From: Candidatus Gottesmanbacteria bacterium
GTDB lineage: Bacteria; Patescibacteriota; Microgenomatia; UBA10105; UBA927
Length of the DNA: 64,000 nucleotides
Assembly: GCA_030679255.1 (NCBI GenBank)
Contig: JAUXTO010000022.1
Coordinates: 64,915-128,914, forward strand
Direction: 5' to 3'
Shown here: positions 16,627 through 40,488 of the stretch, in pieces
How positions within the stretch are numbered: the first letter of the stretch is position 1
How the letters are laid out: each line of letters starts with the position of its first letter
Translations under genes and position numbers: made by a program
Notes under the pieces: model-generated
Database searches by the model: none
What the model was told of the DNA's origin: nothing
The model's input: the letters and a program-made list of their open reading frames with translations, nothing else

Positions 16627-18654
16627 TTATCGTATCTTCGCTCCCACGGGGAGACCTTCGGCAGAAACAAACAGGGGCTTTGCCGTTTTCAAAGCCTGGC
16701 TTTGATCTTCTGGAAAGCCTGGCTTTGAGTCGACCGCCAATATCATCCCCTGGCTCTCCTCATCCATCATTTTTCGCGGCGCAAGATTGGTGATAAAGAA
16801 AAATTGCTTATTGAGGAAGTCTTCGGGTGTATACCCAAACCCCCGCACGCCGGTAAAAATAATGCGAAGTTCTTTTTCATCCCCCTTACCTCCCTTATCT
16901 CCCCCATCTCCCTGATCTCCCTTATTCTTCAACCCAAAATCCACCACGAGCCGTATGAGTTTCTCACTCCCCTCTTTGTTGGTCGCCTCAACGACTTTCC
17001 CCACCCTTAGCTCCACCCTGCCAAATTCTTCAATGGTTATGACGCCATCATTTTCTCCGTTGCCTAATTGTTTTGCAGTCTTTATTGGTAGTATTGGTAG
17101 TATTTGTTTATTGGTAGTATTGGTAGTATTTGAATATTGATTGATAAGTCCCACCGCCTCCCGTACTTCCCGCATTGTCTCCCCTGCAACTATCCTCGCT
17201 TTTGCCGCCCCGTCCTCTAGTATTTTCTTGACGGCCGCAGGATTTGCTGCCAATTCCTTATACGCTTTTCTCGCATTTGCAAAGTATTTAAGTAATGATT
17301 CATACAGGTAATTTTTTACCTCAACATCTGCTATCTGACCCTTTCTATAAGCTTCTTTCAGTTCGTTGTTTTTTGTTTTTTGTCCAAAATAATCTAGGTA
17401 GGTAAAGACCATGTTGCCCTCCGTGTGTCCGGGGTCCGTTGCATGAATTCTGGTCGGATCCGTGTACGTACTCATCACCTGCTTTCGTATTTTTTCCTCA
17501 TCGTCAAAGATGCTGATGATATTTCCCAAGCTCTTGCTCATCTTCCGTTTCCCATCTGTTCCCAACACCGCCCCCACCTCCTCCGGTATATACGCCTCCG
17601 GCAGTTTGAATACTGCGGTCTTGCGCGTCCCAAGCAAAGTCGAGGGATAAATCTTATTGAAGCGTTCTGCGATATCGCGTGTAATCTCCACGTGCTGTTT
17701 CTGGTCTTTCCCCACCGGCACGAGGTCCGGTTTATAAAGAAGGATATCCGCAGCCATAAGGACGGGATAATTAAATAAACCGAGATTAATATCCTCTTCC
17801 AGGATATTTCTTTCGAGCTTATCCTTATATGCATGGGCGCGCTTGATGAGGCCCAAAGGTGTCACATTATTGAGTATTGTTTGGAGGTCAGGATGAAGCC
17901 CAATATCTGATTGACGATAAAATATCAGGTTGCCAAACTCCTTTTCGGAAAGAAATCCCTTAAGGAGCGCGAGCTCATTGAGGATGAGCGTTTCAGAGTT
18001 GTGTTGGAGTTGAGTCCTATCCTGTATCGTGGTTAACGCGTGTAAATCTGCCACAAACAAAAAGCACTCGTTCGTTTTTGCAAGCTCAATAAACTGCTTG
18101 ACTGCACCTAAATAGTTCCCAATATGCAGACTCCCATCTCCACTTGGCGTGATACCCGACACTAGTCGTTTCCCTTGTACTACACGTTTCAACTCGTTGA
18201 ATGCAAAATCTCCAACCATCCCCCCGTTGACCTTCGGCATGTCAAGAGCATTCATCACCATGCCAAGCGTTCTCATGCCGCCGATGCCATATGCTTTCCC
18301 AATCGTCAATACTTTTGCATCGATAAAATACGGAATAGCAAGTCCCAAGTACGGCACAAGTCCGGCTTCTGTTCCCAAAGTTTTCAGCTCTGCTTTGGAA
18401 GCAAATGCAAGCGTCTTGACCACTGCGAGTTTTTTGAATTTTTCCTGATCTATCTGGGTATCGGCGCACTTGACTGCGGCGACTATCCCCTTCTCTGTTT
18501 TGTAGAGTATCGTTACCATCGCCTGTGCAAGGGAAATGTGATGAAACGCGGCGTGTGACGGCACGTCAAACGGCAAATCCTCCGGCAAGGGGATAAATTT
18601 GTAATCCACCTTATTCTCATTTAGTATTTTTTCGATGGTATCTTTTAGATTCAT
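16627..18654 (-). CDS. trpS: tryptophanyl-tRNA synthetase with N-terminal YbaK/ProX-like deacylase domain and C-terminal EMAP/Trbp111-type tRNA-binding domain
   Basis: SGITPSGDGSLHIGNYLGA (HIGH-type) and KRKMSKSLGN (KMSKS) match TrpRS. The C-terminal VELRVGKVVEA...NLAPRKMMDEESQGMILA is the OB-fold tRNA-binding module. In-frame TTNTTN and KPGF repeat segments are present. Confidence 0.85.
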   Translation of the reverse strand: MNLKDTIEKILNENKVDYKFIPLPEDLPFDVPSHAAFHHISLAQAMVTILYKTEKGIVAAVKCADTQIDQEKFKKLAVVKTLAFASKAELKTLGTEAGLVPYLGLAIPYFIDAKVLTIGKAYGIGGMRTLGMVMNALDMPKVNGGMVGDFAFNELKRVVQGKRLVSGITPSGDGSLHIGNYLGAVKQFIELAKTNECFLFVADLHALTTIQDRTQLQHNSETLILNELALLKGFLSEKEFGNLIFYRQSDIGLHPDLQTILNNVTPLGLIKRAHAYKDKLERNILEEDINLGLFNYPVLMAADILLYKPDLVPVGKDQKQHVEITRDIAERFNKIYPSTLLGTRKTAVFKLPEAYIPEEVGAVLGTDGKRKMSKSLGNIISIFDDEEKIRKQVMSTYTDPTRIHATDPGHTEGNMVFTYLDYFGQKTKNNELKEAYRKGQIADVEVKNYLYESLLKYFANARKAYKELAANPAAVKKILEDGAAKARIVAGETMREVREAVGLINQYSNTTNTTNKQILPILPIKTAKQLGNGENDGVITIEEFGRVELRVGKVVEATNKEGSEKLIRLVVDFGLKNKGDQGDGGDKGGKGDEKELRIIFTGVRGFGYTPEDFLNKQFFFITNLAPRKMMDEESQGMILAVDSKPGFPEDQSQALKTAKPLFVSAEGLPVGAKIR
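17084..17131. repeat. (GGTAGTATT)n tandem repeat inside trpS (encodes TTNTTN on minus strand)
   Basis: Same 9-nt unit in tandem at 38422-38461 and 38561-38590, inside two other genes. Confidence 0.65.
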
Positions 18655-18713
18655 AGTAGTTTACCCGCCGCTCAAGCACTCTTTGAACCGTCTACGAACA
18701 GTAGTATAAAGGT

Positions 18714-19430
18714 TCAAAGGTAGCTTAGGCGGGCCTCCTTTGTATAATACTGTTTTAATATGGTGTTTGCGAGAATGGAAAGTGAATTATAAACCGGCAG
18801 GTCATAATTCGTTGGAAAAACCAGTGGAAGCTCCGTGCATCCTAATACAATCCCATCAACCTTCTCTTTTTCTCGATAGCCAGTCACCAACGTTACGAGT
18901 TTTCTCATGAGCATTCCACGATCTTCTCCGGATAAAACTCCCCGTATAATATACTCGAGCTCCCGGTAATCCCGCTCCTGTGGGACGATATACGGCAAAT
19001 CATGACGCGCCAAAGCAAGTTGGTAAAGTCCTAGCCGCAATGACGTTGGCGATGCGAGTAGTAATACCCGTGGAGCATTCCGAGACACTTCTTTGACCAC
19101 CGCATCAACAATCGAAACAAATGGCACGTCGGTTTGCAGTTGCAGTCGGTCCGCGAGAACACACGCGGTATTACATGCCATTGTGATCGTCGTTGCGCCA
19201 TAAACGGTTAATCGCCGCACGCGGCTTTCTAACATCTGAGCGGCTTCTTCCATTCTTTCCATATCACCAATAAAATAGGGCACCGGCACTGAGTCAATGA
19301 TGATTTCCGGATACTCATCATTATTTTTCGCGCCATAGATATGCCGCGCTTGATCGATGAGGATACGATAAAACTCCGCACTCGCCTGCGGCCCCATGCC
19401 ACCGATCACGCCGATAATGTTGTTATTCAT
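18714..19430 (-). CDS. aspartate/glutamate racemase family protein
   Basis: IGVIGGMGPQAS at the N-terminus, plus the two Cys motifs MACNTA and LGCTELPL. Confidence 0.75.
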   Translation of the reverse strand: MNNNIIGVIGGMGPQASAEFYRILIDQARHIYGAKNNDEYPEIIIDSVPVPYFIGDMERMEEAAQMLESRVRRLTVYGATTITMACNTACVLADRLQLQTDVPFVSIVDAVVKEVSRNAPRVLLLASPTSLRLGLYQLALARHDLPYIVPQERDYRELEYIIRGVLSGEDRGMLMRKLVTLVTGYREKEKVDGIVLGCTELPLVFPTNYDLPVYNSLSILANTILKQYYTKEARLSYL

Positions 19431-19433
19431 AGG

Positions 19434-19659
19434 CAGATCCGCTCCGGCTCGAACGGAGAATAGGAATTTTGTCCCAGAAGTAGCTTGCGGGGCTCCTCTG
19501 CTTCGAACAGAGAACGCTAGTTTTGGAGACTAGAATGATTCCAGTTTCACCAAAGCCCCAGCCGCTTAGTACTTCGGGATCCCGCACGCTAAGCCAAATC
19601 TTTTTGATTTGGCAAGTGATGCGGGAGACATTCCTGTGATTCCATTTCACTACGGATCT
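19434..19659 (-). tRNA. split or intervening-sequence-containing tRNA gene enclosing tRNA-Trp; anticodon not assignable (CUC/Glu if junction falls after loop position 36)
   Basis: 5' half 19659-19630: AGATCCG TA GTGA AATGGAA TCAC A GGAAT. 3' half 19467-19434: ATTCC TATT CTCCG TTCGAGC CGGAG CGGATCT G. Acceptor, D, anticodon and T stems are all perfectly complementary and the T loop is canonical. They are separated by 162 nt. Confidence 0.5.
19488..19559 (-). tRNA. tRNA-Trp (anticodon CCA)
   Basis: Hand-folded cloverleaf on the minus strand: acceptor GGGGCTT/GAGCCCC (7 bp, one GU); D stem GTGA/TCAT; anticodon stem CTAGT/ACTAG with loop CTCCAAA (U33, CCA, A37); T stem CTCTG/CAGAG with loop TTCGAAG; discriminator G. 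CCA not encoded. Confidence 0.85.
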
Positions 19660-19718
19660 AAAAAAGCCCTTGTAAATCATCCACGATAATCGTGGAGAAT
19701 GTACAAGGGCCTTCTTAT
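19660..19718 (-). terminator. rho-independent terminator-like hairpin (GCCCTTGTA...TACAAGGGC + T6 on minus strand) abutting the tRNA 5' end
   Basis: 9-bp GC-rich stem with nested inner hairpin, followed on the minus strand by TTTTTT at 19665-19660. Confidence 0.4.
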
Positions 19719-20028
19719 TTGAAGGGGTACCACCCTACTTCGCTTTTCTACAAAAAATCCCACCGGAACGGCGGGAGATATGTAAGAAAAACCTCATTAC
19801 ATGCTCCGCTGAATGCGACACATGGTGCTTTATTTTTACAGTTAAGCTTCCGGATGAGACATTCCTCAAGAGATAGCCTCATCAGCGTTTTGATATTTCT
19901 ATCAATTGGAAAGATCCCAATCAATCTCTCCTTACGCTTTTATTCAACTGAAAAGTAGTATAGCACAGGCTTTGACGCTTGACAAGCCTCTCTACTATGT
20001 TATTATATTGTTATAACAAAGGAGACAG

Positions 20029-20281
20029 TATGAAACAAAAAATCATCAAAGTCGGCAATTCCGGAGCAGTCTTGATCCCAAAACAGTATTTGGACACGCT
20101 CAAACTCAAAATTGGATCTAGCATTAATCTTGATTTACAGGAGGACAGTTCACGCCTCGTTATCGACGTGCCTGCTAAATATATGAGCATGAAAGTTCCG
20201 TTGGATAAAGAGGTCTACGCAGTCGGCCAGGATCTCCTGAAGCGCTATCTCCCTGCATTTGTAAAGCTTGCACACGCATGA
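20029..20281 (+). CDS. AbrB/MazE/SpoVT-fold antitoxin
   Basis: KIIKVGNSGAVLIPKQYLDTLKLKIGSSINL is the swapped-hairpin motif. Stop overlaps the start of the Doc toxin (ATGA). A TTGACA-16-TATTAT promoter lies at ~19975-20005. Confidence 0.65.
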
Positions 20282-20661
20282 AATATCTCACCACGGAAGA
20301 CGTGCTCCTCCTCCATCATCTCTCTATCGAAAAAAGTGGCGGCTCCCACGGACTACGTGACGCTGGGCTATTGGACGCCGCCGTCCATCGACCACAGGCG
20401 ACATTTGATGGAGAGGATTTGTACCCCAGGCTCTTTGATAAAGCTGGAGCCCTTTGTCACTCCCTCATCAAAAATCATGCGTTTGTCGATGGGAATAAAC
20501 GCACATCGCTCCTTTCCACCATGACGTTTTTGGAAATCAATGGGTATACGTTCAAGTGTAAACAAGAAGAACTCGTAGTATTTGGTCTGAAAATCGATAA
20601 CGAAAACATCTCGCCGAACGGCATCGCCACTTGGTTTATATCCCACTGCATTAAACGCTAA
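20278..20661 (+). CDS. Doc (death-on-curing) / Fic-fold toxin
   Basis: HAFVDGNKRTSL matches the Doc/Fic motif H.F.DGNKR. Confidence 0.8.
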   Translation: MKYLTTEDVLLLHHLSIEKSGGSHGLRDAGLLDAAVHRPQATFDGEDLYPRLFDKAGALCHSLIKNHAFVDGNKRTSLLSTMTFLEINGYTFKCKQEELVVFGLKIDNENISPNGIATWFISHCIKR

Positions 20662-20670
20662 CGAACAACT

Positions 20671-21231: not shown

Positions 21232-21477
21232 ATAGTTACTAAGTTGTTTTTTAATTACTCTCATGCCCATACTCGTCTTTAAATATTTTTCTCGAGCCTC
21301 GGCGTCAGATTTTAGCAAATAGGCTTCGTAGTAGATGAGCTTAAACGGAGTGTAAGGTGCCGTAGAAAAATTTTTACCGGCGTTGTGTTCAGCGACTCTT
21401 CGTTTTAAATCGGATGTTGAGCCTTTATAAAGCCAGTTGTTACGTTTGGAAGATTGGAGGATATAGACGTAGTACAT
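21217..21477 (-). CDS. GIY-YIG nuclease domain protein
   Basis: YYVYILQS...LYKGSTSDLKRRVAEHN is the GIY-YIG core. Confidence 0.7.
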   Translation of the reverse strand: MYYVYILQSSKRNNWLYKGSTSDLKRRVAEHNAGKNFSTAPYTPFKLIYYEAYLLKSDAEAREKYLKTSMGMRVIKKQLSNYLNRQ

Positions 21478-21616: not shown

Positions 21617-21647
21617 ATAAAAAAATCCGCTATTAGCGGATTTTTTT
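21617..21647. terminator. bidirectional rho-independent terminator (A8-ATCCGCTATTAGCGGAT-T7), member of a repeated module
   Basis: Perfect 6-bp stem with 4-nt loop flanked by A-run and T-run. Same module inverted at 28024-28052. Both are bracketed by the inverted repeat GAGGGT...ACCCTC. Confidence 0.5.
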
Positions 21648-22036
21648 ATTTGATACCCTCGGTTGCGGGGCTGGGAGTCGCACCCAGCCTAGAAGATTAT
21701 GCACGTGTTTCTCCCATTCCTGAGAGTGTCGGACTATATCTTTCCCGCTAAGCGGGATTCGGCGTATAGTCTCTACGGATTTCCGCCAACTGGCGGACCT
21801 TTCCTCGGTATTACCCTTCAATATTGAATGGGGTTTCACCGATATAGCCGAATTCTACCCTGAGATATTTCTCTGAGCAGCCCATAATCGAGCCTTCTGT
21901 GCAACTGTACACTACCCCGCGGTACATGAAAGTACTCTCGTATACTATCAAACGAACTACGGAGCGTCAACGCAGGCTTGAACTTTTTTCTGTTATTCAA
22001 TGAAAGATGCTTTCATTTTTATGCTAAAATCAACTC

Positions 22037-26005: not shown

Positions 26006-26260
26006 ATGACCAGATGGTTTGTCTACATCCTCCTCTGCCGGGGCGGGAGTCTCTACACCGGTATCGCCAAGGATCCGGAAAAGCGATTGAGTGAACACAA
26101 ATCAGGCAAAGGCGGCGCGTACACGAGAAGCCATCCACCCGTTCGCATTGTGTATACACAATCAGTGAAGTCCAGATCCGCAGCGCTTAAACGCGAAGCC
26201 GAAATCAAACGCTGGGGAAGGCTAAAGAAGATCAAGACCCTTGGACTAACCGTGCTTTGA
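26006..26260 (+). CDS. GIY-YIG nuclease domain protein
   Basis: WFVYILLCRGGSLYTGIAKDPEKRLSEHKSGKG...IVYTQ...SRSAALKREAEIKRW is the GIY-YIG motif set. Confidence 0.65.
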   Translation: MTRWFVYILLCRGGSLYTGIAKDPEKRLSEHKSGKGGAYTRSHPPVRIVYTQSVKSRSAALKREAEIKRWGRLKKIKTLGLTVL

Positions 26261-27245
26261 TTTCCTCTATGGTGAGTCGCTCTTCGCGTTGCCATTTCTT
26301 AATCTGCTTAATCCTGATGGCAATCGAAGGATCAAATTGCATAAATCCTCCCTGACTTTTTTGTGTGGGACGGATAAGTCCTTGTGACACGTAGTAGCGT
26401 ACCGTGGGGATAGAGACCATCGATTCTTTAGCAACCGCGCCGATAAAAAGTAGTGGCTGCTTTACGCCTTCCTGGTCAACGAAATATGGGATAACGGGTT
26501 TCCCGTGTGCAGCAGCAGTCCACGCATCCAGCGATCGTTCGACTGCCCCGGCTATGACGTTATAGAAATTTTGGAGCGATCCGGTCATGATGCTATCCCC
26601 AATCGCTTGCATATACGCCTGACGTTCTTCTGTCTTGACTATGGCAATCGGGTACCCATGCCCCAAAAGGATAAGATTCATGAGTAACCTCGCCGTTCTC
26701 CCGTTCCCATCGATGAACGGATGAATATCCACAAACCGGAGATGAAAATCCGCGGCAACTTTCACCGGATGCTCGCCCTGGATACTCCCTAACCATTCAA
26801 CGAGTTTTCTCATTCGCCAGGGCACCTCATTGGGAGGCGGTGGCTCAGTCGCGGCACCGCGGATAAATACCTGACTTTGGCGGTAAATACCAGCCCACCG
26901 GTCCTCAATACCCGTCAGAATAATTCTGTGAATGTCTTTTATATCGTTTTCGGAAATATATTGATGGCCTTTTTTGACGATTGCACGGATAAAACCAATG
27001 GCTTTCTGATGATTGGTTGCCTCCACGTGTTCACGCAATGTCTTCCCTTCTATCGTGATCCCTTTTTCTAAAACAAGCGCGGTTTGCTCGCGCGTGAGCG
27101 TATTGCCCTCGATCCAGTTGGATGTGTAGGTATACTCGGTGTCTAGCCACTCCTGGAGGCTTGCACGCTCTTCCCCGGCAAGGGGCTTAAGCGCATCAAG
27201 CTTTTTCTTCTTTATGCTCAACCGATCAAAAATATCAACCATCAC
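26232..27245 (-). CDS. Fic-family protein with C-terminal MerR-like HTH
   Basis: HPFIDGNGRTARLLMNLILL matches the Fic motif HPFx(D/E)GNGR. The C-terminal SMVSIPTVRYYVSQGLIRP is a MerR-type HTH. Paralog of 33883-34866. Confidence 0.85.
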   Translation of the reverse strand: MMVDIFDRLSIKKKKLDALKPLAGEERASLQEWLDTEYTYTSNWIEGNTLTREQTALVLEKGITIEGKTLREHVEATNHQKAIGFIRAIVKKGHQYISENDIKDIHRIILTGIEDRWAGIYRQSQVFIRGAATEPPPPNEVPWRMRKLVEWLGSIQGEHPVKVAADFHLRFVDIHPFIDGNGRTARLLMNLILLGHGYPIAIVKTEERQAYMQAIGDSIMTGSLQNFYNVIAGAVERSLDAWTAAAHGKPVIPYFVDQEGVKQPLLFIGAVAKESMVSIPTVRYYVSQGLIRPTQKSQGGFMQFDPSIAIRIKQIKKWQREERLTIEEIKARLVQGS

Positions 27246-28109: not shown

Positions 28110-28463
28110 TCAAAAAAACAACCTCCACCACCTCTTCCAATTGGGTATTATTTCTTCCTTTTCTTCGTTTGTTTGGTCATTGGGATTTGTGATTTGAGAT
28201 TTGGGGAGTAATACGACAGTCTCCCCTTCCTTCCCCAATCCCAGCCGATTCCTCGCCTCCTGCTCGATAAACTCGGGGCTCTGGGCATAGTCAAGCTCCT
28301 TTTGAAGCCGCGCGTGCTCAGCCTCTACACGCCGGAGTACGGCCTGCCGCTCCCCTAGGATATCGCGACGGCGCCACAAATCCCAGATCGACCGCGATAG
28401 GTTTACGATCATAAACGCGCTCACCACGATGATAATAATTCGTATTACTCTCCATTTCTCCAT
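28110..28463 (-). CDS. ftsB: septum formation initiator FtsB/DivIC family
   Basis: N-terminal TM helix, coiled coil, conserved EFIEQEARNRLGLGKEGETVV motif. C-terminal tail KSQITNPNDQ resembles the KSQ repeat family. Confidence 0.7.
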   Translation of the reverse strand: MEKWRVIRIIIIVVSAFMIVNLSRSIWDLWRRRDILGERQAVLRRVEAEHARLQKELDYAQSPEFIEQEARNRLGLGKEGETVVLLPKSQITNPNDQTNEEKEEIIPNWKRWWRLFF

Positions 28464-28490: not shown

Positions 28491-28539
28491 TCTGTTTTCT
28501 GTTATCTGTTATCTGCTATCTGTTATCTGTTATCTGATC
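28491..28539. repeat. 7 tandem copies of heptamer TCTGTTA/TCTGCTA in the divergent ftsB-xerC intergenic region
   Basis: Directly visible tandem array. Confidence 0.6.
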
Positions 28540-31572: not shown

Positions 31573-31644
31573 GTGGGCCCGCTTGGTGACGATCCAAGTG
31601 CCCCCGTCTTATAAGGACGATGCTCTACCGATGAGCTACGGGCC
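31573..31644 (-). tRNA. putative tRNA-Ile (anticodon TAT) with non-canonical T loop
   Basis: Acceptor GGGCCCG/CGGGCCC; D arm TA GCTC ATCGGTA GAGC; anticodon stem TCGTC/GACGG with loop CTTATAA (U33, UAU, A37); T stem CTTGG/CCAAG with loop ATCGTCA (A54/U58 instead of U54/A58). Confidence 0.5.
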
Positions 31645-31665
31645 CCGAGAGCATTATACCAAATC

Positions 31666-33882: not shown

Positions 33883-34866
33883 ATGAAACAGATACTCGCC
33901 ACACTTGAGGCAAAAAAGCAACGTCTTGATGCCCATCGTCCACTCCCTTTGGCTCTTGTCCGTAACCTCAACGATTGGTTCAGCATCGAATTGACTTATA
34001 CCAGTAACGCGATTGAGGGCAATACGTTGTCGCGCGCTGAAACTGCGCTCATTGTGGAAAAAGGTCTCACGGTAGAAGGAAAAACGCTCAGCGAGCATCT
34101 GGAGGCAGTCAATCATGCGCAGGCGATCGAATATGTAGCCACACTGAGCAATCGTACGCGGGTTGATCTCACGCAAAAGCATCTCTTAGAACTCCATCGG
34201 TTGATTCTACAAAAAATTGATGATGCCAACGCCGGCCGGTATCGGAGCGTTTCCGTACGGATTGCCGGCTCCCGCGCTATCATGCCAAACCCCATGAAAG
34301 TCCCCCGCCTCTGCGATGAATTTATGACGTGGCTCACGAAAGCACAGGGCAATGAACTCATGATTGCCGCCGACGCGCACTTCCGGTTCGTCAGTATCCA
34401 CCCGTTCACCGACGGCAACGGTCGCACGGCACGGCTCTTGATGAACCTCGTATTGATGCAGGCCGGTTTCCCCCCGGCGATTATCCGCAAAGAGGATCGC
34501 AAACGGTACATCGACAGTATTGAGGCAGGGCAACTCGGAAAGTCACTGGACGACTACTATCAATTAATTTTTGAATCGGTCGACCGGTCGTTGGATATAT
34601 ATCTCGATGCCGTTGAGCAGAAAGAAAAAACGGATGTCATCACGAATAAAAAACAAATTAAAATTGGAGAGCTTGCGACACTCGCGGGTGAATCAGTCCC
34701 TACGATCCGGCATTGGACAAAAGAAGGACTCCTCGCCGTCGCCGCCCGCTCCCCCGGCGGATACCAGCTCTATGACGTGAGTCAGGTTGGGGTCATTAAA
34801 AAAATTATAAAACTGCAGGAGAAACGCTTCACTCTTGCAGAGATTAAAAAGTCACTCAACACCTAA
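33883..34866 (+). CDS. Fic-family protein with C-terminal MerR-like HTH
   Basis: HPFTDGNGRTARLLMNLVLM Fic motif; C-terminal IKIGELATLAGESVPTIRHWTKEGLL HTH. Paralog of 26232-27245. Confidence 0.85.
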   Translation: MKQILATLEAKKQRLDAHRPLPLALVRNLNDWFSIELTYTSNAIEGNTLSRAETALIVEKGLTVEGKTLSEHLEAVNHAQAIEYVATLSNRTRVDLTQKHLLELHRLILQKIDDANAGRYRSVSVRIAGSRAIMPNPMKVPRLCDEFMTWLTKAQGNELMIAADAHFRFVSIHPFTDGNGRTARLLMNLVLMQAGFPPAIIRKEDRKRYIDSIEAGQLGKSLDDYYQLIFESVDRSLDIYLDAVEQKEKTDVITNKKQIKIGELATLAGESVPTIRHWTKEGLLAVAARSPGGYQLYDVSQVGVIKKIIKLQEKRFTLAEIKKSLNT

Positions 34867-35594: not shown

Positions 35595-37985
35595 CTAAAG
35601 CCTCGCCCGCTGGGCGATTTCCGCTTCCACGAGCTCTTTGCTGCGACCGTATTTGAGGCGGGAGAGTTGGACGATGGCGGCAGCAACTGCCTGATTTTTG
35701 GAGGCAACTACTTTGCTCATATCCTTCGTCAAATCCATGCTAAAGGGCTTCACCGGCTCATTGTGGACCGTGGTTTTGACGTAGGCGTTGAAACGGTCGA
35801 TGTTGATGAGGTCTGACTCATTGAAGGTCGGCTGAAATTCATGTTGCAAATAGTTGGCATCCGTCACGCCAATACGGAATGAGGCCACGGTGCCGACGTT
35901 TCCAAATACGGCATTTTTCACTTCCTCTTCCATCTGCCCGATGAACTGATTGGCGACAATCAGATTGAGTCGGTATTTCCGGGCTTCGGAGAGAATTTGC
36001 GCAAAGTCCGGGGTCGCAAAATTTTGAAACTCATCGACGTAAAGATAAAAATCGCGCCGCTTTTCCTCCGGTATTTCCTGCCGGCTCATGGCGGAGATCA
36101 AAATACGGGGAACAAGGATAAGTCCAAGGAAATTGCTGTTCTCCTCACCAAGTTTCCCTTTAGCAAGATTGACCAAGAGGATCTTCCCCTCATCCATGAC
36201 TTTCCGAAACTCGAAGCTCGAGTTGGATTGCCCGATGATATTGCGGATGAGTTTATTGGTAATGAAGCGGCCAAATTTCGAGACGATGTAGTCCAGAACC
36301 TCGGATTTATGAAAGTCTGCCGTTTGGGCAATCTGATCCGTCCAATACCGCCGCACAATCGGATCTTTAACCAATGGTAATAACGACTGCACGAAGTCCG
36401 GCCGCTGGAGGGTCTGCACAACCTCAATGAATGTGCCGTTGGGAATGGCTTCCATGACGGTAAGCATTGCGTTTCGTATTGCGTGCTCAAACCGTGGCCC
36501 GATGATACCCGTTTTCATAGGGTCAAAGAGTTTATACATGAGTCCGACGATCGAGGTCGCCACAAAATGCTTTTGCAATTCTGTTTTCGCTTCCAATAAA
36601 TTCAGTCCGATCGGCCGCTCGCTGTCTCCGGGATCAAAATAAATGACGTCTTCAGCCCGCTCCGGCGGCATGCGCGCAAGGATATTTTCAACCAAATCTC
36701 CGTGGGGATCAACGACTGCCAACCCGTGCCCGGCGTGGATATCCTGCATGACCATCTCTTCAAGAAGTTGTGATTTACCTGTACCGGTTTTTCCGATGAT
36801 GTACATGTGCCGCCTCCGGTCGTCTTCACCGATATAAATCCTGCGGTCTTGCCCGCGGTACCGGGAAATCCCCATGAATAATCCTGACGAGGGAATCTGA
36901 GACGGAGCAGGGGCGCGCTTGGCGTTTAGCCAAAAGATGTGGGCGGTCTCAACCGATTTATTCGGCAAATGGAAAATGGTCGCTAGCTCATCGGTTGATA
37001 AGACGCTATGCTGCGGCAGGAGCGGCAAATTGATGACCGGAAAATATCGGTAAATGAAGTCCACCATAAACAGCTGTTTGAACGGGAGCTTCACTTTCGT
37101 AAAATTATTGTGGTCACTGGCAAACTGCTCAAATGCGCCGATAAGATTCTCGAGATGCCGTTTTGCCGATTCCTCATCCGGAGAAGATATGACCAGCCGG
37201 ACAACCGCATTAAATCCGGGCTTACTCACTTTGCCCTCGATAGCCTCGAGACTCTTGGGGTCCACTTTAAAACTCGCTTTTTCGGGATTCGCTTCGTCTT
37301 TCTTCACTTTGGAGATGTATCCCCGGCCGAGTTTACGCCACTTACTATCCGCCGGTTGGATGAGGATCTGGACGGCAGCCCCCTCCCCTTCCGCCATTTT
37401 TGCCAAAACCGAGGTGATTGAAGAAAGAGGATCTACCGGTAAATCCCGATAAATGCGCATCGGGAAATAATTAGAACTTTTGAGTTTAAGCGCCGCAAAC
37501 GCGACCTTACCGGTCTGAGAAAATATCGTGTATTCGTCTACCTCCTTGATATCCGCCCCGCTATAACTCCCGTGGATTTGCTTTTCTACGTAATCCATGA
37601 GTTTGCGTGGGCACGAGACATAAAAACGGATATCTTCGCGCTTGGCGACAATCTCAAACGAGATGTGCTCCTGTGGCTTGAGGAACGACCAAAATCCGCC
37701 GTGAGATATGGAATGAAGACTTGCAAACAACTGTTCCGCTGCATCTATTTTTATCTCATTTTCCCTAGGGACGGCTATCTGCATGAGGACATACTCGAGA
37801 CTGCGCTCTTCGCGTTTCCTATATTTCCACATGAGAAACGCGACGTAGCCAAGGATTACCAAACCCGCAAGAAACACCACTAACAATAAAAGGCTTACGG
37901 CAAATACTTCCAATTGATAAGTGAGGTCTGTAAATTGTAATGGCATATAACGAGTCGTAAAGTCCGTAAAGTTGAAAGTCTTCAT
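35595..37985 (-). CDS. VirB4/TrbE-like type IV secretion ATPase (AAA-like, DUF87-type), N-terminal TM segments
   Basis: Two N-terminal TM helices; Walker A MYIIGKTGTGKSQLL; Walker B LYVDEFQNF; ~800 aa, as for VirB4/CagE/TrbE. Confidence 0.6.
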   Translation of the reverse strand: MKTFNFTDFTTRYMPLQFTDLTYQLEVFAVSLLLLVVFLAGLVILGYVAFLMWKYRKREERSLEYVLMQIAVPRENEIKIDAAEQLFASLHSISHGGFWSFLKPQEHISFEIVAKREDIRFYVSCPRKLMDYVEKQIHGSYSGADIKEVDEYTIFSQTGKVAFAALKLKSSNYFPMRIYRDLPVDPLSSITSVLAKMAEGEGAAVQILIQPADSKWRKLGRGYISKVKKDEANPEKASFKVDPKSLEAIEGKVSKPGFNAVVRLVISSPDEESAKRHLENLIGAFEQFASDHNNFTKVKLPFKQLFMVDFIYRYFPVINLPLLPQHSVLSTDELATIFHLPNKSVETAHIFWLNAKRAPAPSQIPSSGLFMGISRYRGQDRRIYIGEDDRRRHMYIIGKTGTGKSQLLEEMVMQDIHAGHGLAVVDPHGDLVENILARMPPERAEDVIYFDPGDSERPIGLNLLEAKTELQKHFVATSIVGLMYKLFDPMKTGIIGPRFEHAIRNAMLTVMEAIPNGTFIEVVQTLQRPDFVQSLLPLVKDPIVRRYWTDQIAQTADFHKSEVLDYIVSKFGRFITNKLIRNIIGQSNSSFEFRKVMDEGKILLVNLAKGKLGEENSNFLGLILVPRILISAMSRQEIPEEKRRDFYLYVDEFQNFATPDFAQILSEARKYRLNLIVANQFIGQMEEEVKNAVFGNVGTVASFRIGVTDANYLQHEFQPTFNESDLINIDRFNAYVKTTVHNEPVKPFSMDLTKDMSKVVASKNQAVAAAIVQLSRLKYGRSKELVEAEIAQRARL

Positions 37986-38028
37986 GTAACGCTTTATCGA
38001 CTTTAAAGACTTTTTGACTTTATAGACT

Positions 38029-38481
38029 TTAGACTTTTGGACTTTTGACTAATGTTCTGTGCAATTGTTTCAGTCTGCGTACGCAAAATTCCGCGAGCCA
38101 ACGCCACGAACTCGTGACGCTTTGCTTGAGTCCTAACGCAATCTGATCGTCCGTAAGCGGCAAGGTCACGGGCGGAGCCACCGGCACCACTGCGTCCCCG
38201 ATCGCCTTCACGCCCATTTGCGCGACAGGCTGCGGCAGTTGCACCGTCGTGGGCTGCGTGGACACTCCTGCTGCCGCTACTTCCTTCGGAAGTTCCATCT
38301 CTTTGCCCGTTAGGTCTTTAAGTCCCGGCTCTTCACGTCCCAATCCTCCTACTTCGAATTCTTTCCCACTAATACTTCTACCCGATTGCCCACCCATTGA
38401 TTGAATTGGGCTAATTTGATTATTGGTAGTATTGGTAATATTTGTAGTATTGGTAGTATTGTCAGCAGATGAGCCATCCAT
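38029..38481 (-). CDS. hypothetical protein with N-terminal (TTN)n low-complexity segment
   Basis: ADNTTNTTNITNTTN is encoded by an (AATACTACC)n repeat. P/V/A-rich middle region. Confidence 0.35.
   Translation of the reverse strand: MDGSSADNTTNTTNITNTTNNQISPIQSMGGQSGRSISGKEFEVGGLGREEPGLKDLTGKEMELPKEVAAAGVSTQPTTVQLPQPVAQMGVKAIGDAVVPVAPPVTLPLTDDQIALGLKQSVTSSWRWLAEFCVRRLKQLHRTLVKSPKV
38422..38461. repeat. (GGTAGTATT)n tandem repeat inside ORF 38029-38481
   Basis: See 17084-17131. Confidence 0.65.
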
Positions 38482-38493
38482 ACTTTTATCATA

Positions 38494-40488
38494 TCACGAA
38501 GCATACGCAAAAATGACTGCGTGTTGAGGTAATAGATTCTTTCTTTTTTTCATTTGACGATTGGTAGTATTGGTAGTATTGGTAGTATTTTGCGCCCCCT
38601 GCTCCCGCAGTGCCGTTAAATAGTGAATAATCGACAAAAGTACCCACGGTGTCTCTTCTTTGTCTTGCAAGACATCGTCTTGCGAAGCTAGACGATGTCT
38701 TATGAAAGTACTCTTTGACGTACCGGCTTCTTTTCGACCAAGAATCATCCACACCATCCACGCAAACCGTACTCCGACAAAAACCATGCGCTCTTGCAAT
38801 CGCACATCCTCAGCAAAACCAGGCTTTGCTCTTCGAAAGCCCGGCTTTCGTAACACACGTTTTTCCTTTTCGCTTCGCGAGGCACTTCCTTGCGAAGCAA
38901 ACTTTGCAAATTCCGTATCTGCCACCGCTAACTTCACCCAAACTATTTTTTCGCGTCTTGGCATTCGCATCCGGTCAAGAGTCCGTTCCGCTCTCCGTAT
39001 CATCTGGTACAATTTTCTTATCTGTTGTTTTTCCCGCTTTTCCAAAATTATCGGTGTCAATAATTCTGCGGCCGCAACTTTTTTGATCCCTTTCTCCATG
39101 TTCATTTTTCTTCTCTCTTTCCGTTTACGCTTATCGCGATCATTGAAAGTAAAAATACGACCTTCGGCCGTCACCTCCAGATGCAGCTTCAACCGCTTCC
39201 TCCTCGCCTTCAGTTCTTTTGTCTCCCAGCTTCGCAAGACCACCTCTTGCGAAGCTAAACGATTCTTTTTTACTTCCCGTTTTGCTTTCCGTAATTCCTT
39301 ATTCTTTCTTCTTAATTCTTTTTTCGCGTGCCGTGCGATACTCTTTTCTACCGCCCGGACCGGTGTGGGCAATTGTTCTGCAATCCGGGCCAGAAGTACC
39401 GGCGCCGCATGCATGGCAAGGCCGGTCTCGGCTATCACGGATAGTGCCCGCGCGTCTCTTTGCATTTGAACATGACGCTTGGCAGTCAACTCAACGACGC
39501 TCACTGGCTTCTCACGGATTTTTGCTAACGTTATGCGCTCGGATGGTTGCCCTCTCCGGCCCTCAAGGACATTCGCTCGTTTCACTACTCCCTCCCCGTG
39601 CATCTCCCTCTGTATCTTTTTACTGCGCAAATAAACCGCCACATCTCTGACCGTTTCGCGCGTATCGTGAAGCACTCTTGATGAAATATCGGTCAACATA
39701 TCCTGGCGGTAATTCTCTTGTGTACTTGCTTGTTTTTGTTGGCGTTCCTGCGGCACCTCTTCTGGCAGACGCGAGTAGGTTTCCTGATGCGACCGGTGAA
39801 TCTTCGTCACCATTGCGTTTTTGATCTCGGCAAAGGAATTGTTTGCATTGGATTGAATTGCCAACACAAATGCTTGTTTTTGGTGCGCGTGCTGATGAAA
39901 CGAAACACTATCTTGCTGTTCAAACGCAGTAAATGACGTACCCGTACGCACATCTTCAATCCGTATATTTTTTCCCAAATCAATTCTTGACCCGTCATAC
40001 CGCGTGGGGTCGGACGCATTCTTCGTCCAAACGGAAAGATAGCGGGACACGATATTGCCGTCCTGATCCAAATGCTGTTCCGGCAAAATAATTTTTTCCG
40101 CGCCCTCAACCGCAAGCCTTGTCGCCTCCCGCAGTGTCGCTGCCTCAAGGGGCGCAGTAGCTTTTATATTCTCCGGCACGAGACTGCTGTATCTCCCTTG
40201 GGTAATATTTGCAGTCATTTCATCCAAACTCACTCCTGTTTCTGTCATCATCTTTCCATCACGAAGTGTGAGCGACCACTGACTTTCCTGTCCTTTTTGT
40301 TCCTGGATCCAACTCCGTATATCTGCGCGCAGATATTGCCGCGCTGTTTCTTCGCCAAGCGTAGCCACGTTCTCCGCGTAGGTTGCGTGAGCGAGTGCAT
40401 TATTCCAACTGTGTCCGCCTTCATCCCCGGCGAGGGCAAATTCTGCCATATCAGAGGATTGCCTCCATCCCTGTCTCCCACGGCGCAA
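38494..40488 (-). CDS. large hypothetical protein with basic K/R-rich C-terminal half
   Basis: 664-aa ORF downstream of the VirB4-like gene. Contains TTNTTN and KPGF repeat segments. Confidence 0.4.
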   Translation of the reverse strand: MRRGRQGWRQSSDMAEFALAGDEGGHSWNNALAHATYAENVATLGEETARQYLRADIRSWIQEQKGQESQWSLTLRDGKMMTETGVSLDEMTANITQGRYSSLVPENIKATAPLEAATLREATRLAVEGAEKIILPEQHLDQDGNIVSRYLSVWTKNASDPTRYDGSRIDLGKNIRIEDVRTGTSFTAFEQQDSVSFHQHAHQKQAFVLAIQSNANNSFAEIKNAMVTKIHRSHQETYSRLPEEVPQERQQKQASTQENYRQDMLTDISSRVLHDTRETVRDVAVYLRSKKIQREMHGEGVVKRANVLEGRRGQPSERITLAKIREKPVSVVELTAKRHVQMQRDARALSVIAETGLAMHAAPVLLARIAEQLPTPVRAVEKSIARHAKKELRRKNKELRKAKREVKKNRLASQEVVLRSWETKELKARRKRLKLHLEVTAEGRIFTFNDRDKRKRKERRKMNMEKGIKKVAAAELLTPIILEKREKQQIRKLYQMIRRAERTLDRMRMPRREKIVWVKLAVADTEFAKFASQGSASRSEKEKRVLRKPGFRRAKPGFAEDVRLQERMVFVGVRFAWMVWMILGRKEAGTSKSTFIRHRLASQDDVLQDKEETPWVLLSIIHYLTALREQGAQNTTNTTNTTNRQMKKRKNLLPQHAVIFAYAS
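38561..38590. repeat. (GGTAGTATT)n tandem repeat inside ORF 38494-40488
   Basis: See 17084-17131. Confidence 0.65.

What the first reader, a model, noticed from the sequence alone, without database searches (positions are those of the whole stretch)
17084..38590. (GGTAGTATT)n tandem repeats encoding TTNTTN tracts inside three different genes
The same 9-nt unit is tandemly repeated inside trpS (17084-17131), inside ORF 38029-38481 (38422-38461) and inside ORF 38494-40488 (38561-38590). It is always in the frame that yields Thr-Thr-Asn repeats. Such in-frame microsatellites are rare in small bacterial genomes and could act as contingency loci or mark a shared insertion element. The last two are adjacent genes downstream of the VirB4-like ATPase, possibly surface or pilus proteins.
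Basis: seen in the sequence. Interest (0 to 1): 0.55.

Follow-up and report, generated by a model that had tools for sequence, protein, structure and literature searches.

The report
In-frame arms of IVS-like elements
The 9-base repeats that encode Thr-Thr-Asn are stray half-copies of a widespread family of hairpin elements that normally flank a small four-helix-bundle gene; housekeeping proteins tolerate them as floppy linkers, and they do not look like genetic switches.

Summary
The (GGTAGTATT)n tracts are real, at the stated coordinates, and far beyond chance. One detail is wrong: half of the trpS tract is read as Ile-Leu-Pro, not Asn-Thr-Thr.

The tracts are not isolated microsatellites. 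They belong to a family of 8-9-nt units (core T-N-G-K-A-T-T) found at nine or more sites in this Gottesmanbacteria window. All lie in disordered linkers, protein termini or intergenic DNA.

In public genomes the same units form long imperfect hairpins. The A/C-rich arm (AATACTACC, AATAAACAA) is always 5' and the G/T-rich arm (TTGTTTATT, GGTAGTATT) always 3'. The loop is either short or holds a PF05635 gene ("23S rRNA intervening-sequence protein", a four-helix bundle). Nine of nine loci of one PF05635 subfamily carry these arms; none of seven genes from other subfamilies do.

A cassette arm in another Gottesmanbacteria genome shares an exact 32-mer with the trpS insert.

Orthologues keep the trpS composite 36/36 nt identical while the gene is only 66-75% identical. 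Copy number differs between species (2 versus 5).

The carriers are housekeeping enzymes, the units keep the reading frame, and near-identical assemblies show no length variation. A contingency-locus role is therefore not supported; a shared-element origin is. How the repeats spread is unknown.

The parts
17081..17139 (-). trpS insert. On the sense strand it reads (AATACTACC)2-AATAAACA-(AATACTACC)2-AATAAAG and encodes NTTNTTNKQILPILPIK (residues 509-525). It lies in the linker between the TrpRS core and the C-terminal tRNA_bind domain.
   Evidence: AlphaFold pLDDT is below 50 for residues 509-536. The RNA has no structure of its own. An exact 32-mer is shared with the 5' arm of a PF05635 cassette in L176.
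38425..38460 (-). Four units (two degenerate) in the variable N-terminus of the 150-aa ORF 38029-38481. The peptide reads MDGSSAD-NTTNTTNITNTTN.
   Evidence: The MDG start and the downstream part of the protein are conserved in L160, L161 and L163, while the N-terminal tract varies.
38563..38589 (-). Three perfect units in ORF 38494-40488. They lie between the conserved motif ..LTALREQG and the conserved C-terminal tail KKRKxLLPQxAVIFAYAS, and encode QNTTNTTNTTNRQ.
   Evidence: The tract is absent from homologues P0131, P0132, P0134 and P0135. Units are swapped for AATCCGACC in L163 and L161.
6585..6640 (-). Sister repeat (TTGGAATTTGGTGCTTGGGATTTGT)x2 plus GGGATTT inside the GT4 glycosyltransferase ORF 6027-7277. 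It encodes NPKSQAPNSKQIPSTKFQ.
   Evidence: The orthologue L110 has (TTATCCAA)4 at the same site.
8803..8860 (-). The same 25-nt sister repeat inside the 5'-3' exonuclease ORF 8011-9258. It encodes ITNPKHQIPNKSQAPNSN.
   Evidence: The orthologue has unrelated low-complexity sequence at this site.
28176..28210 (-). TTGGGATTT-type units near the C-terminus of the DivIC-like ORF 28110-28463. They encode PKSQITNPN.
11171..11209 (+). Intergenic array ATTGGTCGGATTTGTCGGATTGGTTAAATTGGCCGGATT (GGTCGGATT-type units), about 40 nt upstream of the ftsH start.
   Evidence: The GGTCGGATT unit replaces GGTAGTATT within the same array in L163 and L161.
41753..41866 (.). Full hairpin with no ORF in its loop. 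Its arms are built of AATAAACGA / TCGTTTATT units. It fills the gap between the ribonucleotide reductase stop codon and the cobalamin adenosyltransferase ATG.
   Evidence: MFE is -27.3 kcal/mol, z = -4.33. At the orthologous site L162 is empty (4 nt), and L160 and L161 hold hairpins made of other units.
45033..45072 (+). Array with two GGTCGGATT units 26 nt apart, immediately after the stop codon of ORF 45071-45760.
28491..28536 (-). Heptamer array (AACAGAT/TAACAGA)x6.6, about 25-30 nt upstream of the DivIC-like start codon. It is a related short-unit repeat, but its membership of the same system is inferred, not shown.
   Evidence: The same heptamers fill the trpS linker site in L110. GACAGAT heptamers lie upstream of the S23p ORF in the Coxiella IVS (PMC4990558).

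Best explanation
The three tracts are in-frame, single-arm copies of a dispersed short-repeat family.

The complete form of the family is a palindromic element that resembles a 23S rRNA intervening sequence (IVS). It has a 5' arm of A/C-rich 8-9-nt units (AATACTACC, AATAAACAA, AATCCGACC, AAATCCCAA). It has a complementary 3' arm of G/T-rich units (TTGTTTATT, GGTAGTATT, GGTCGGATT, TTGGGATTT). Between the arms lies either a short loop or a PF05635 gene (four-helix bundle, 'S23p').

Shown:
- The tracts use the same units in the same mosaic order as these arms.
- The arms flank one PF05635 subfamily in every case examined.
- The tracts occupy insertion-tolerant, disordered segments.
- Their nucleotide sequence is held constant across species, while copy number and neighbouring units change.

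Inferred:
- Arm sequence enters or overwrites permissive sites. The route is unknown; it could be recombination or gene conversion with other copies, or a cassette-linked activity.
- Selection then keeps only copies whose length preserves the frame and whose reading is harmless. A/C-strand readings (NTT, KQ, ILP) give polar linkers. G/T-strand readings (GSIGSI, LVVLVV) survive only as membrane-like segments.
- Replication slippage changes the unit number.
- In the proteins the tracts act as neutral flexible spacers, not as switches.
For: Family membership:
- The window has nine or more sites with sister units, all with the G/T-rich strand on the + strand.
My own calculation for 596 Gb gives about 17 expected by chance. 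Of 111 arrays, 72 have further family units nearby and 28 have the complementary arm. Among 29 viral hits the figures are 2 and 1.
- The complementary arm lies upstream in 28 arrays and downstream in none. The hairpins fold with z-scores down to -12.

Link to PF05635:
- Clustering of neighbouring ORFs singled out PF05635 genes.
- Four homologues were chosen by protein similarity alone, and all are flanked by the arms.
- One subfamily has the arms in 9 of 9 loci; other subfamilies have them in 0 of 7 genes.
- The 5' arm in L176 (Gottesmanbacteria) shares an exact 32-mer with the trpS insert.

Constraint at the nucleotide level:
- The trpS composite is 36/36 nt identical in three lineages whose trpS genes are 66-75% identical (43-52% at third codon positions). 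Unit counts are 2, 2 and 5.
- The 26-mer GGTAGTATTTGTTTATTGGTAGTATT occurs in 15 metagenome stretches, in many different genes.

Permissive sites:
- pLDDT is below 50 over the tract.
- The trpS linker ranges from about 10 to about 60 aa among 47 homologues.
- Orthologous sites hold different repeats in a relative with 79% amino-acid identity in TrpRS.
- An orthologous intergenic site is empty in one genome and filled with hairpins of different units in others.
- Carriers are housekeeping enzymes, and G-strand-sense copies encode hydrophobic segments.
Against: - The 64-kb window contains no PF05635 gene, and no complementary arm lies next to the three tracts.
- No insertion mechanism, transposase or target-site duplication was found.
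- The direction of descent is not settled. Cassettes might recruit repeats that already exist, rather than donate them.
- In the 664-aa protein family the tract looks old and partly degenerate (NPT and NVT variants), as ordinary coding repeats do.
- The hairpin alignment shows sequence conservation but no compensatory changes.
- Several taxon labels of public MAGs are doubtful.
- Only consensus assemblies were available.
Confidence: 0.6

Rival explanations
1. These are ordinary local microsatellites. Each tract arose on its own by replication slippage in an N/T-rich linker, and it is kept only by selection on the protein for a polar, flexible spacer.
For: The tracts lie in disordered linkers. 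Copy number differs between species, and array edges are degenerate. The window is rich in other tandem repeats. Viral contigs show that the 18-mer also occurs in ordinary coding contexts.
Against: - Protein-level selection cannot fix the codons AAT-ACT-ACC. Yet the composite is 36/36 nt identical in genes that are 66-75% identical.
- The same 26-mer mosaic recurs in unrelated genes.
- An exact 32-mer is shared with a cassette arm.
- The same units occur in non-coding hairpins in other phyla.
Confidence: 0.1
2. The units are binding sites for a sequence-specific nucleic-acid-binding factor. They would form a post-transcriptional or transcriptional regulatory network, as proposed for TAACTGA repeats. 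The coding copies would be regulatory elements embedded in genes.
For: The sequence is conserved at the nucleotide level across species and phyla. Many intergenic G/T arms end within a few nucleotides of a start codon. The analogy with TAACTGA repeats comes from PMC4679880.
Against: - Orthologous sites use different units in close relatives.
- The excess of downstream start codons is weak: 22 of 66 against 17 of 80 in the opposite orientation.
- Coding copies are in the opposite orientation to the copies that lie upstream of start codons.
- The promoter scan does not flag the arrays.
- No candidate factor was tested. The PF05635 protein itself would be the obvious candidate, which merges this rival with the novel reading.
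Confidence: 0.12
3. The tracts are contingency loci. They would be hypermutable repeats whose length changes switch or tune the three genes.
For: They are tandem short units whose copy number differs between species. The 8-nt units can shift the reading frame.
Against: - The 9-nt units preserve the frame.
- The carriers are essential housekeeping genes.
- There are no indels among three near-identical assemblies over 22 kb, nor between two over 9.5 kb.
- Each tract has only 2-5 units.
Confidence: 0.03
4. The units are DNA-uptake or recombination signal sequences, spread by molecular drive as DUS/USS sequences are.
For: Shared properties, recalled from my knowledge of USS/DUS and not tested here: a short conserved motif, frequent arrangement as inverted pairs between genes, and confinement of coding copies to tolerant frames and poorly conserved protein segments.
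Against: The exact unit never occurs singly in the window; it occurs only in arrays at three loci in 64 kb. It occurs across bacteria and an archaeon. It is associated with a specific gene cassette.
Confidence: 0.04

Closest known systems
23S rRNA intervening sequences (IVS) that carry an S23p / PF05635 ORF (Coxiella, Leptospira; PMC4990558)
   Same: Terminal inverted repeats form a long stem, and a PF05635 four-helix-bundle ORF sits in the loop. Most IVSs are hairpins without an ORF. Tandem short units lie in the 5' part, and their number varies between strains (GACAGAT in Coxiella). IVSs are regarded as selfish elements.
   Different: Here the elements lie between protein-coding genes, not in helix 25 or 45 of 23S rRNA. 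The arms are built wholly of 8-9-nt units. Single arms occur in frame inside housekeeping ORFs. Excision by RNase III is untested.
Rickettsia palindromic elements (RPE) (reviewed in PMC10969869)
   Same: Selfish repeats inserted in frame into unrelated metabolic and housekeeping genes, in a way compatible with protein fold and function.
   Different: RPEs are about 150-bp elements. The coding copies here are 27-59-nt single arms made of tandem units, and the family has a gene-carrying form.
REP/BIME elements with RAYT transposases, and MITEs
   Same: Dispersed intergenic palindromes with a mosaic make-up. One MAG holds several copies with unrelated flanks. An orthologous site exists in both filled and empty states.
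   Different: No RAYT or other transposase was found, and no target-site duplication. The arms are periodic tandem units. The associated gene is PF05635, which has no known catalytic activity.
TAACTGA heptamer repeats of Beggiatoaceae, Cyanobacteria and Bacteroidetes (PMC4679880), and cyanobacterial STRR heptamers (the latter from my own knowledge)
   Same: One short unit is repeated directly and shared by distant lineages, with no known transfer mechanism. It is often just upstream of start codons and occasionally inside ORFs.
   Different: The units here are 8-9 nt, form inverted arms, are linked to a gene cassette, and are common inside coding sequence.
Borg tandem repeats that create disordered regions (PMC9879509)
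   Same: In-frame tandem repeats add disordered segments to proteins and evolve fast.
   Different: According to that abstract, Borg repeat regions arise independently. Here the same units and mosaics recur across loci, genomes and phyla.
Simple-sequence contingency loci of host-adapted bacteria
   Same: Short tandem units inside genes.
   Different: The unit length keeps the frame, the genes are housekeeping genes, and no population length variation was seen.

Membership tests
Contingency (phase-variable) simple-sequence locus | A change in repeat number shifts the reading frame or the promoter spacing and so switches expression | tested here: not met
   The units are 9 nt and each tract as a whole stays in frame. 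The only 8-nt unit is compensated within the insert.
Contingency (phase-variable) simple-sequence locus | Length heterogeneity within a population | tested here: inconclusive
   There are no indels among L110, L111 and L112 (22 kb) or between L114 and L115. These are consensus assemblies of relatives, and reads were not available.
Contingency (phase-variable) simple-sequence locus | Located in surface, host-interaction or restriction-modification genes | tested here: not met
   Carriers are TrpRS, GT4, 5'-3' exonuclease, DivIC, GatB, a GlmS-like enzyme, PEP synthase, carbamoyltransferase and M16 peptidase.
IVS-like PF05635 (S23p) cassette / hairpin family | Complementary terminal arms that form a long stem | tested here: met
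   This holds for the family: z-scores reach -12, arms-only folds reach -56.5 kcal/mol, and the window hairpin 41753-41866 has z = -4.33. It does not hold for the three tracts themselves, which are single arms.
IVS-like PF05635 (S23p) cassette / hairpin family | A PF05635 ORF in the loop of the full-length form | tested here: met
   All ten neighbouring ORFs score above the Pfam cut-off. Nine of nine subfamily loci are flanked by the units, against none of seven genes from other subfamilies. No such gene lies inside the window.
IVS-like PF05635 (S23p) cassette / hairpin family | Sequence identity between the tracts under study and the cassette arms | tested here: met
   An exact 32-mer is shared by window 17081-17112 and L176 1149-1180, just upstream of the PF05635 gene. 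The same 26-mer mosaic occurs in 15 metagenome stretches.
IVS-like PF05635 (S23p) cassette / hairpin family | Insertion in 23S rRNA and excision by RNase III | not testable with these tools
   All copies seen lie between or within protein-coding genes, and no RNA data were available. This is why the thing is filed as IVS-like and not as an IVS.
MITE | Terminal inverted repeats and multiple dispersed copies with unrelated flanks | tested here: met
   L004, L031 and L043 carry an element of about 165 nt with sharp boundaries and unrelated flanks. Nine elements from different MAGs are highly similar.
MITE | Target-site duplications and a cognate transposase | tested here: not met
   No consistent duplication was seen at element ends. 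No transposase was found among the window ORFs scanned or among the recurrent neighbours.
REP/BIME | Extragenic location and an associated RAYT (Y1 transposase) | tested here: not met
   The copies under study are intragenic, and no RAYT-like ORF was found in the window.
Rickettsia palindromic elements | In-frame insertion into housekeeping ORFs at tolerated positions | tested here: met
Rickettsia palindromic elements | A complete palindrome of about 100-150 bp inside the ORF | tested here: not met
   Coding copies are single arms of 27-59 nt with no self-complementarity.
Any described RNA family (Rfam 15) | A match at the family's gathering score | tested here: not met
   No family covers the arrays or hairpins. 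Below threshold there are only generic long-hairpin (miRNA precursor) matches, on both strands.

The most novel reading that the evidence does not exclude
The PF05635 four-helix-bundle protein has no established function, and its fold family includes the Avd protein of diversity-generating retroelements. On this reading it is the trans-acting partner of a mobile, IVS-like cassette family that crosses phyla and possibly domains.

The protein would recognise, or help to propagate or process, arms made of 8-9-nt units. Each protein subfamily would have its own arm vocabulary. Solo arms would be copied into intergenic sites and into permissive loops of housekeeping proteins.

This would amount to a sequence-specific 'repeat writer' that reshapes proteins in Patescibacteria, Omnitrophota, Dehalococcoidia and Thermoplasmata.
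Probability: 0.2. Interest if true: 0.8.

Novelty: new variant of a known kind. Interest (0 to 1): 0.62.

Why it matters
The finding links three things that have been treated separately: odd in-frame peptide repeats in proteins of candidate-phyla bacteria, intergenic hairpins made of periodic units, and the abundant but functionless 'four helix bundle / 23S rRNA IVS protein' genes.

If the link holds:
- PF05635 cassettes exist outside rRNA as a very large family of palindromic elements. The profile search found at least 6,998 relatives before its candidate limit.
- Their arms become a source of new disordered linkers, and even membrane-like segments, in essential enzymes.
- The strict pairing of protein subfamily with arm sequence gives a direct, testable handle on what the S23p/Avd-like fold does.

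It also matters for annotation. These tracts should not be called phase-variable loci. Identical short repeats shared by MAGs of different phyla need not mean contamination.

Tried and rejected
- **Source contig.** Exact-product look-ups of the window's TrpRS and 150-aa protein found nothing on record, so the rest of the source contig could not be read.
- **Literature.** The two 18-mers occur in no paper in the library, and the 9-mer hits were unrelated. A keyword search for Patescibacteria plus repeats gave nothing useful.
- **Rfam.** No family matched at gathering score. Below threshold there were only generic hairpin hits.
- **Promoter idea** (TTGGTA-N16-TAGTAT). The consensus scan does not flag the arrays, and promoter-like sites are not enriched.
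- **5'-UTR operator idea.** The excess of ORF starts within 90 nt downstream of the G/T arm is weak: 22 of 66 against 17 of 80 in the opposite orientation.
- **Structural covariation.** In nine Omnitrophota/Planctomycetia elements, none of 26 predicted pairs shows a compensatory change. The elements are simply too similar.
- **Target-site duplications.** None were consistent.
- **Viruses as vectors.** Of 29 viral hits, 2 pass the lenient family test and none has two or more same-strand family units.
- **Resemblances recalled from memory and dropped.** These were DnaA boxes, TRAP/HutP (U/G)AG repeats, the Y-box ATTGG motif bound by cold-shock proteins, Rho rut sites, and the GTAG of REP elements. 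Spacing, orientation or occurrence in an archaeon did not fit, and none could be tested.
- **Replication-strand bias.** It cannot be separated from gene orientation in this window, because all carrier genes are on the minus strand.
- **Assembly artefact.** Rejected, because the units occur in frame in conserved genes in assemblies from many independent projects.

Full report
**1. Observation**

Tandem Repeats Finder gives:
- a period-9 array at 17083-17130 (5.4 copies), which is also a period-26 array at 17081-17139 (2.3 copies, 93% matches);
- a period-9 array at 38421-38461 (4.6 copies);
- a period-9 array at 38560-38589 (3.3 copies, 100% matches).

The window holds nine exact GGTAGTATT 9-mers. 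All are on the + strand, all lie inside these arrays, and none stands alone. Chance predicts 0.21, and no shuffle reached nine. The 18-mer with up to two mismatches matches seven times against none expected.

**2. Genes and reading frames**

All three carrier genes are on the minus strand, so the mRNA reads AATACTACC.

*trpS.* ORF 16627-18654 is a three-part fusion: tRNA_edit (residues 35-126), TrpRS (163-458) and tRNA_bind (594-647). The insert reads (AATACTACC)2-AATAAACA-(AATACTACC)2. The 8-nt unit shifts the frame, so the peptide is NTTNTTN-KQ-ILPILPI. The claim that the repeat is always in the Thr-Thr-Asn frame therefore fails for half of this tract.

*The other two ORFs.* Both tracts are really coding.
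- Homologues of the 664-aa ORF keep the motif ..LTA(L/I)REQG before the tract and the tail KKRKxLLPQxAVIFAYAS after it. Four homologues lack the tract altogether (REQGMKNYPVKKKRRTLP).
- Homologues of the 150-aa ORF keep the MDG start, the 12-14-nt gap after the upstream stop codon, and the rest of the protein.

*Gene order.* In the direction of transcription the order is GNAT, 664-aa ORF, 150-aa ORF, ATPase. The two ORFs are thus upstream of the ATPase. By Pfam the ATPase matches TrwB/TraG/T4SS-coupling domains, not VirB4.

*Structure.* An AlphaFold model of the TrpRS fusion, built from 43 homologues (mean pLDDT 79.5), has pLDDT below 50 at residues 509-536. That segment contains the whole tract, N509-I524. 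pLDDT is also below 50 at 579-590, a second low-complexity tract.

**3. The tracts are not alone in the window**

C-poor, T/G-rich periodic segments on the + strand also occur at these sites:

| Coordinates | Context | Peptide or note |
|---|---|---|
| 6585-6640 | inside a GT4 glycosyltransferase | NPKSQAPNSKQIPSTKFQ |
| 8803-8860 | inside a 5'-3' exonuclease | NPKHQIPNKSQAPNSN |
| 28176-28210 | near the C-terminus of a DivIC-like protein | PKSQITNPN |
| 11171-11209 | intergenic | GGTCGGATT-type units |
| 45033-45072 | just after a stop codon | GGTCGGATT-type units |

The gap between the ribonucleotide reductase and cobalamin adenosyltransferase genes (41753-41866) is a full hairpin. Its arms are built of AATAAACGA / TCGTTTATT units, and it folds with z = -4.33.

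The units share the core T-N-G-K-A-T-T (TAGTATT, TCGGATT, TGGGATT, TAGGATT) at a period of 8-9 nt. That shared core is my own reading of the sequences.

**4. Orthologues**

The source is a Candidatus Gottesmanbacteria MAG: P0001 is 100% identical to the window's TrpRS.

*The trpS linker is hypervariable.* Among 47 full-length TrpRS homologues, the linker between AVGLxNxYS and ITI(E/D)EF runs from about 10 to about 60 residues. Different lineages fill it with different low-complexity sequences.

*Three diverged lineages carry the same composite at the same place.*
- window: (AATACTACC)2 AATAAACA (AATACTACC)2
- L114/L150: (AATACTACC)2 AATAAACA AATACTACC
- L081: (AATACTACC)5 AATAAACA AATACTACC

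Across the shared 36 nt, identity is 36/36 in every pair. Gene-wide nucleotide identity is 66-75%, and third-position identity is 43-52%. At the gene-wide rate, the chance of full identity is 3e-5 to 4e-7 per pair. Copy number therefore drifts while the unit sequence stays fixed. Selection on the protein cannot explain that.

*A syntenic relative shows turnover at the same sites.* L110 has 79% amino-acid identity in TrpRS.
- At the trpS site it carries heptamers (AACAGAN)n, followed by a decayed remnant of the nonamer composite.
- At the GT4 site it carries (TTATCCAA)4.
- At the exonuclease and DivIC sites it carries unrelated low-complexity sequence.

*Units interchange in the 664-aa family.* L163 has AATCCGACC x2 followed by AATACTACC. 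L161 has AATACTACC, AATCCGACA, AATACTACC.

*A GC-rich palindrome targets the same junction twice.* A 30-nt palindrome (TCCTGCGAAGCAGGATCCTGCTCCGCAGGA) interrupts the array at AATACTAC^C in L162. The same palindrome, with the same junctions, sits in the neighbouring gene of L160.

*One intergenic site exists empty and filled.* At the orthologous site between the RNR stop codon and the adenosyltransferase ATG:
- L162 is empty (4 nt);
- the window has a 114-nt hairpin;
- L160 has a 139-nt hairpin of AAATCCTAA / TTGGGATTT units;
- L161 has a 150-nt hairpin of AAATTCGAA / TTCGGATTT units.

In every filled case the G/T-rich arm ends at the ATG.

*No length variation in near-identical assemblies.* Three assemblies of the L110 population show 0 gaps in 22 kb, and two of the L114 population show 0 gaps in 9.5 kb.

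**5. Public collections**

My own estimate of the chance expectation for 596 Gb is about 17.

By record title, the hits cluster in particular MAGs:
- Thermoplasmata bin983, a 3.58-Mb record whose flanking genes include a valine--tRNA ligase and a bifunctional hexulose-6-phosphate synthase. I take these hits to be consistent with the archaeal label, which is my judgement, not a test.
- A second Thermoplasmata MAG.
- Several Omnitrophota MAGs from independent projects.
- Microgenomates (Gottesman-, Levy- and Roizmanbacteria).
- Dehalococcoidia.
- Planctomycetia-labelled MAGs.

Some labels are doubtful. L028 is labelled 'uncultured Gammaproteobacteria', but it shares its downstream gene with the Levybacteria loci L058 and L089.

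*Family context.* Of 111 arrays in these genomes:
- 72 have further family units within 60 nt, or two or more complementary units upstream;
- 44 have two or more same-strand units;
- 28 have the complementary arm.

Among 29 viral-contig hits, 2 pass the lenient test, none has two or more same-strand units, and 1 has the complementary arm.

*Metagenomes.* The 26-mer GGTAGTATTTGTTTATTGGTAGTATT occurs in 15 metagenome stretches, in many different genes.

*Carrier proteins.* Carriers identified by Pfam are:
- GatB, at two different positions;
- a GlmS-like amidotransferase;
- PEP synthase, between its mobile and PEP-binding domains;
- the C-terminal tails of a carbamoyltransferase and of a sugar transferase;
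- an M16 peptidase.

Where the G/T-rich strand is the sense strand, the peptide is hydrophobic (IGSIGSICLLVVLVVF) and sits where a membrane segment would be expected (L057, L148, L029).

**6. Hairpins**

In intergenic copies the array is the 3' arm of a long imperfect hairpin whose 5' arm is its complement. Folding gives z-scores from about -4 to -12 in most cases.

The polarity is absolute. The complementary arm lies upstream in 28 arrays and downstream in none. Such a hairpin reads A/C-rich arm first on both strands.

Nine elements from Omnitrophota- and Planctomycetia-labelled MAGs align over about 100-125 nt with the same order of modules. They show no compensatory changes (0 of 26 predicted pairs), so what is conserved is sequence.

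One MAG holds three copies of an element of about 165 nt, with sharp boundaries and unrelated flanks. No target-site duplication was seen.

No Rfam family covers any of this.

**7. The associated gene**

I clustered all ORFs within 2.5 kb of the arrays. One family stood out, present in ten loci from Patescibacteria, Omnitrophota and Thermoplasmata bin983. All ten ORFs are PF05635, '23S rRNA-intervening sequence protein', above Pfam's cut-off.

In five of these loci the gene sits between the two arms: A/C-rich units upstream, G/T-rich units downstream. Those five proteins share a subfamily signature, GAN(D/M)xE(A/S)DG.

A profile of the five finds at least 6,998 relatives, annotated 'four helix bundle protein'.

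As a test, I fetched four homologues chosen only by protein similarity:
- L165, between the dCTP deaminase and thymidylate synthase genes;
- L170, upstream of mreB;
- L176, in a Gottesmanbacteria MAG, between an S1-domain gene and the downstream gene, which I read as radA from its Pfam hits;
- L177, in a Limnocylindrales-labelled MAG.

All four are flanked by AATACTACC/AATAAACAA arms on the 5' side and TTGTTTATT/GGTAGTATT arms on the 3' side.

In total, nine of nine distinct loci of this subfamily have family units in their flanks. None of seven PF05635 genes from other subfamilies do. By my own calculation, Fisher's exact test gives p of about 9e-5. The other subfamilies have complementary flanks made of other short units, such as AAACTTTAA, CAGAATT and GTCCATGG.

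The 5' arm in L176 shares the exact 32-mer AATAAACAAATACTACCAATACTACCAATAAA with the window's trpS insert.

The 64-kb window itself contains no PF05635 gene.

**8. Interpretation**

*Shown.*
- The three tracts use the same units, and the same mosaic junctions, as the arms of a dispersed family of hairpins and PF05635 cassettes.
- They sit in disordered, insertion-tolerant segments.
- Their nucleotide sequence is conserved beyond what coding requires.
- Unit number and unit type change between species.

*Inferred.*
- The tracts are solo 5'-arm copies that reached these sites by an unknown route. Candidates are recombination or gene conversion with other copies, or an activity linked to the cassette.
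- Selection filters orientation, frame and position.
- Slippage changes the copy number.
- In the proteins they are neutral spacers.

The architecture of stem, PF05635 ORF and stem matches 23S rRNA intervening sequences. The Coxiella IVS is described as a selfish element whose terminal inverted repeats form the stem. Its S23p ORF sits in the loop, RNase III excises it, and tandem GACAGAT heptamers of strain-variable number lie upstream of the ORF (PMC4990558). The window has (AACAGAT)n upstream of its DivIC-like gene, and L110 has the same heptamers at the trpS site. Whether the elements here are cut out of mRNA by RNase III is untested.

**9. Rivals**

- **Independent local slippage** fails on the nucleotide identity, the shared mosaics and the non-coding copies.
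- **A regulatory-site network** remains possible. Against it, orthologous sites use different units, the association with start codons is weak, and the promoter scan is negative.
- **Contingency loci** are not supported.
- **Uptake-signal sequences** do not fit the array-only occurrence or the cassette link.

**10. Novelty and caveats**

IVS elements with S23p ORFs, in-frame selfish palindromes (RPE; PMC10969869) and short direct repeats shared between phyla (TAACTGA; PMC4679880) are all known.

I did not find any of the following described:
- PF05635 cassettes outside rRNA whose arms are built of subfamily-specific 8-9-nt units;
- ORF-less hairpin derivatives of such cassettes in several phyla;
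- solo arms written in frame into housekeeping proteins.

A search for the 18-mers returned no paper. Most subscription-journal papers are missing from the library.

Caveats:
- No mechanism or direction of descent is established.
- MAG taxonomy labels are partly unreliable.
- Only consensus assemblies were available.
- The rest of the source genome could not be read.

Noticed in passing
window 21620-21925 (minus strand): Rfam finds a group I catalytic intron at 21710-21900 (56.3 bits; gathering score 50). The flanking sequence looks like the two halves of a tRNA with a CAU anticodon: it starts GCGGGGTAG... and ends ...CCCAGCCCCGCAACC. By eye this is an intron-split initiator or Met tRNA. ARAGORN did not call it.
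   Followed up: partly
window 31573-31645 (minus strand): A tRNA-Ile gene with anticodon TAT (UAU), which is unusual for bacteria.
   Followed up: no
window 16627-18654; P0001-P0062: TrpRS is a three-part fusion: a YbaK-like tRNA_edit domain, the TrpRS core and a Trbp111-like tRNA_bind domain. The fusion is conserved in dozens of relatives. Other relatives lack either the N-terminal or the C-terminal module.
   Followed up: partly
window 16879-16925: A second, unrelated 9-nt array in trpS: (ATCTCCCTT)x5, G-poor on the + strand. It encodes GDQGDGGDKGGKGD in a loop of the tRNA_bind OB fold (pLDDT below 50). The orthologue L110 has a GC-rich insert encoding PSFAKATAGKQ at the same place.
   Followed up: partly
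L162 6043-6075 and L160 6076-6108: An identical 30-nt GC-rich palindrome (TCCTGCGAAGCAGGATCCTGCTCCGCAGGA, encoding TPAKQDPAPQD) is inserted at the same junction, AATACTAC^C, of a nonamer array. The two copies are in two different genes of two different genomes. The nonamer may be a target site, or the composite may move as one unit.
   Followed up: partly
window 28491-28536: (TCTGTTA)x6.6, which reads (AACAGAT)n on the sense strand, lies about 25-30 nt upstream of the DivIC-like start codon. It differs by one base from the TAACTGA repeats of Beggiatoaceae and resembles the GACAGAT heptamers of the Coxiella IVS. L110 has a different repeat at this position.
   Followed up: partly
window 11267-11332: A 10-nt-period, G-poor array (CCTCCTAMWTC)n lies in the divergent intergenic region between ftsH and the PfkB-family kinase gene, next to the GGTCGGATT-type array.
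   Followed up: no
L170 about 800-905: A hairpin of the same units, with no ORF in its loop, lies directly upstream of a PF05635 cassette. This shows that the two forms can sit side by side.
   Followed up: no
L028, L058, L059, L089: (GGTAGTATT)2-3 lies 11-22 nt upstream of a conserved gene starting MG(S/G)FGGFYKGEKKK. The MAGs are labelled Levybacteria, except one labelled 'uncultured Gammaproteobacteria'. That label is probably wrong.
   Followed up: partly
window 26232-27245 and 33883-34866: Two paralogous genes that fuse a Fic/DOC domain to a MerR HTH domain. L110 has one too.
   Followed up: no
L161 1-2569: The ribonucleotide reductase of a relative carries an intein with a LAGLIDADG endonuclease, according to precomputed Pfam hits. 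The window's orthologue (41867-44383) is 838 aa, compared with 1,515 aa.
   Followed up: no
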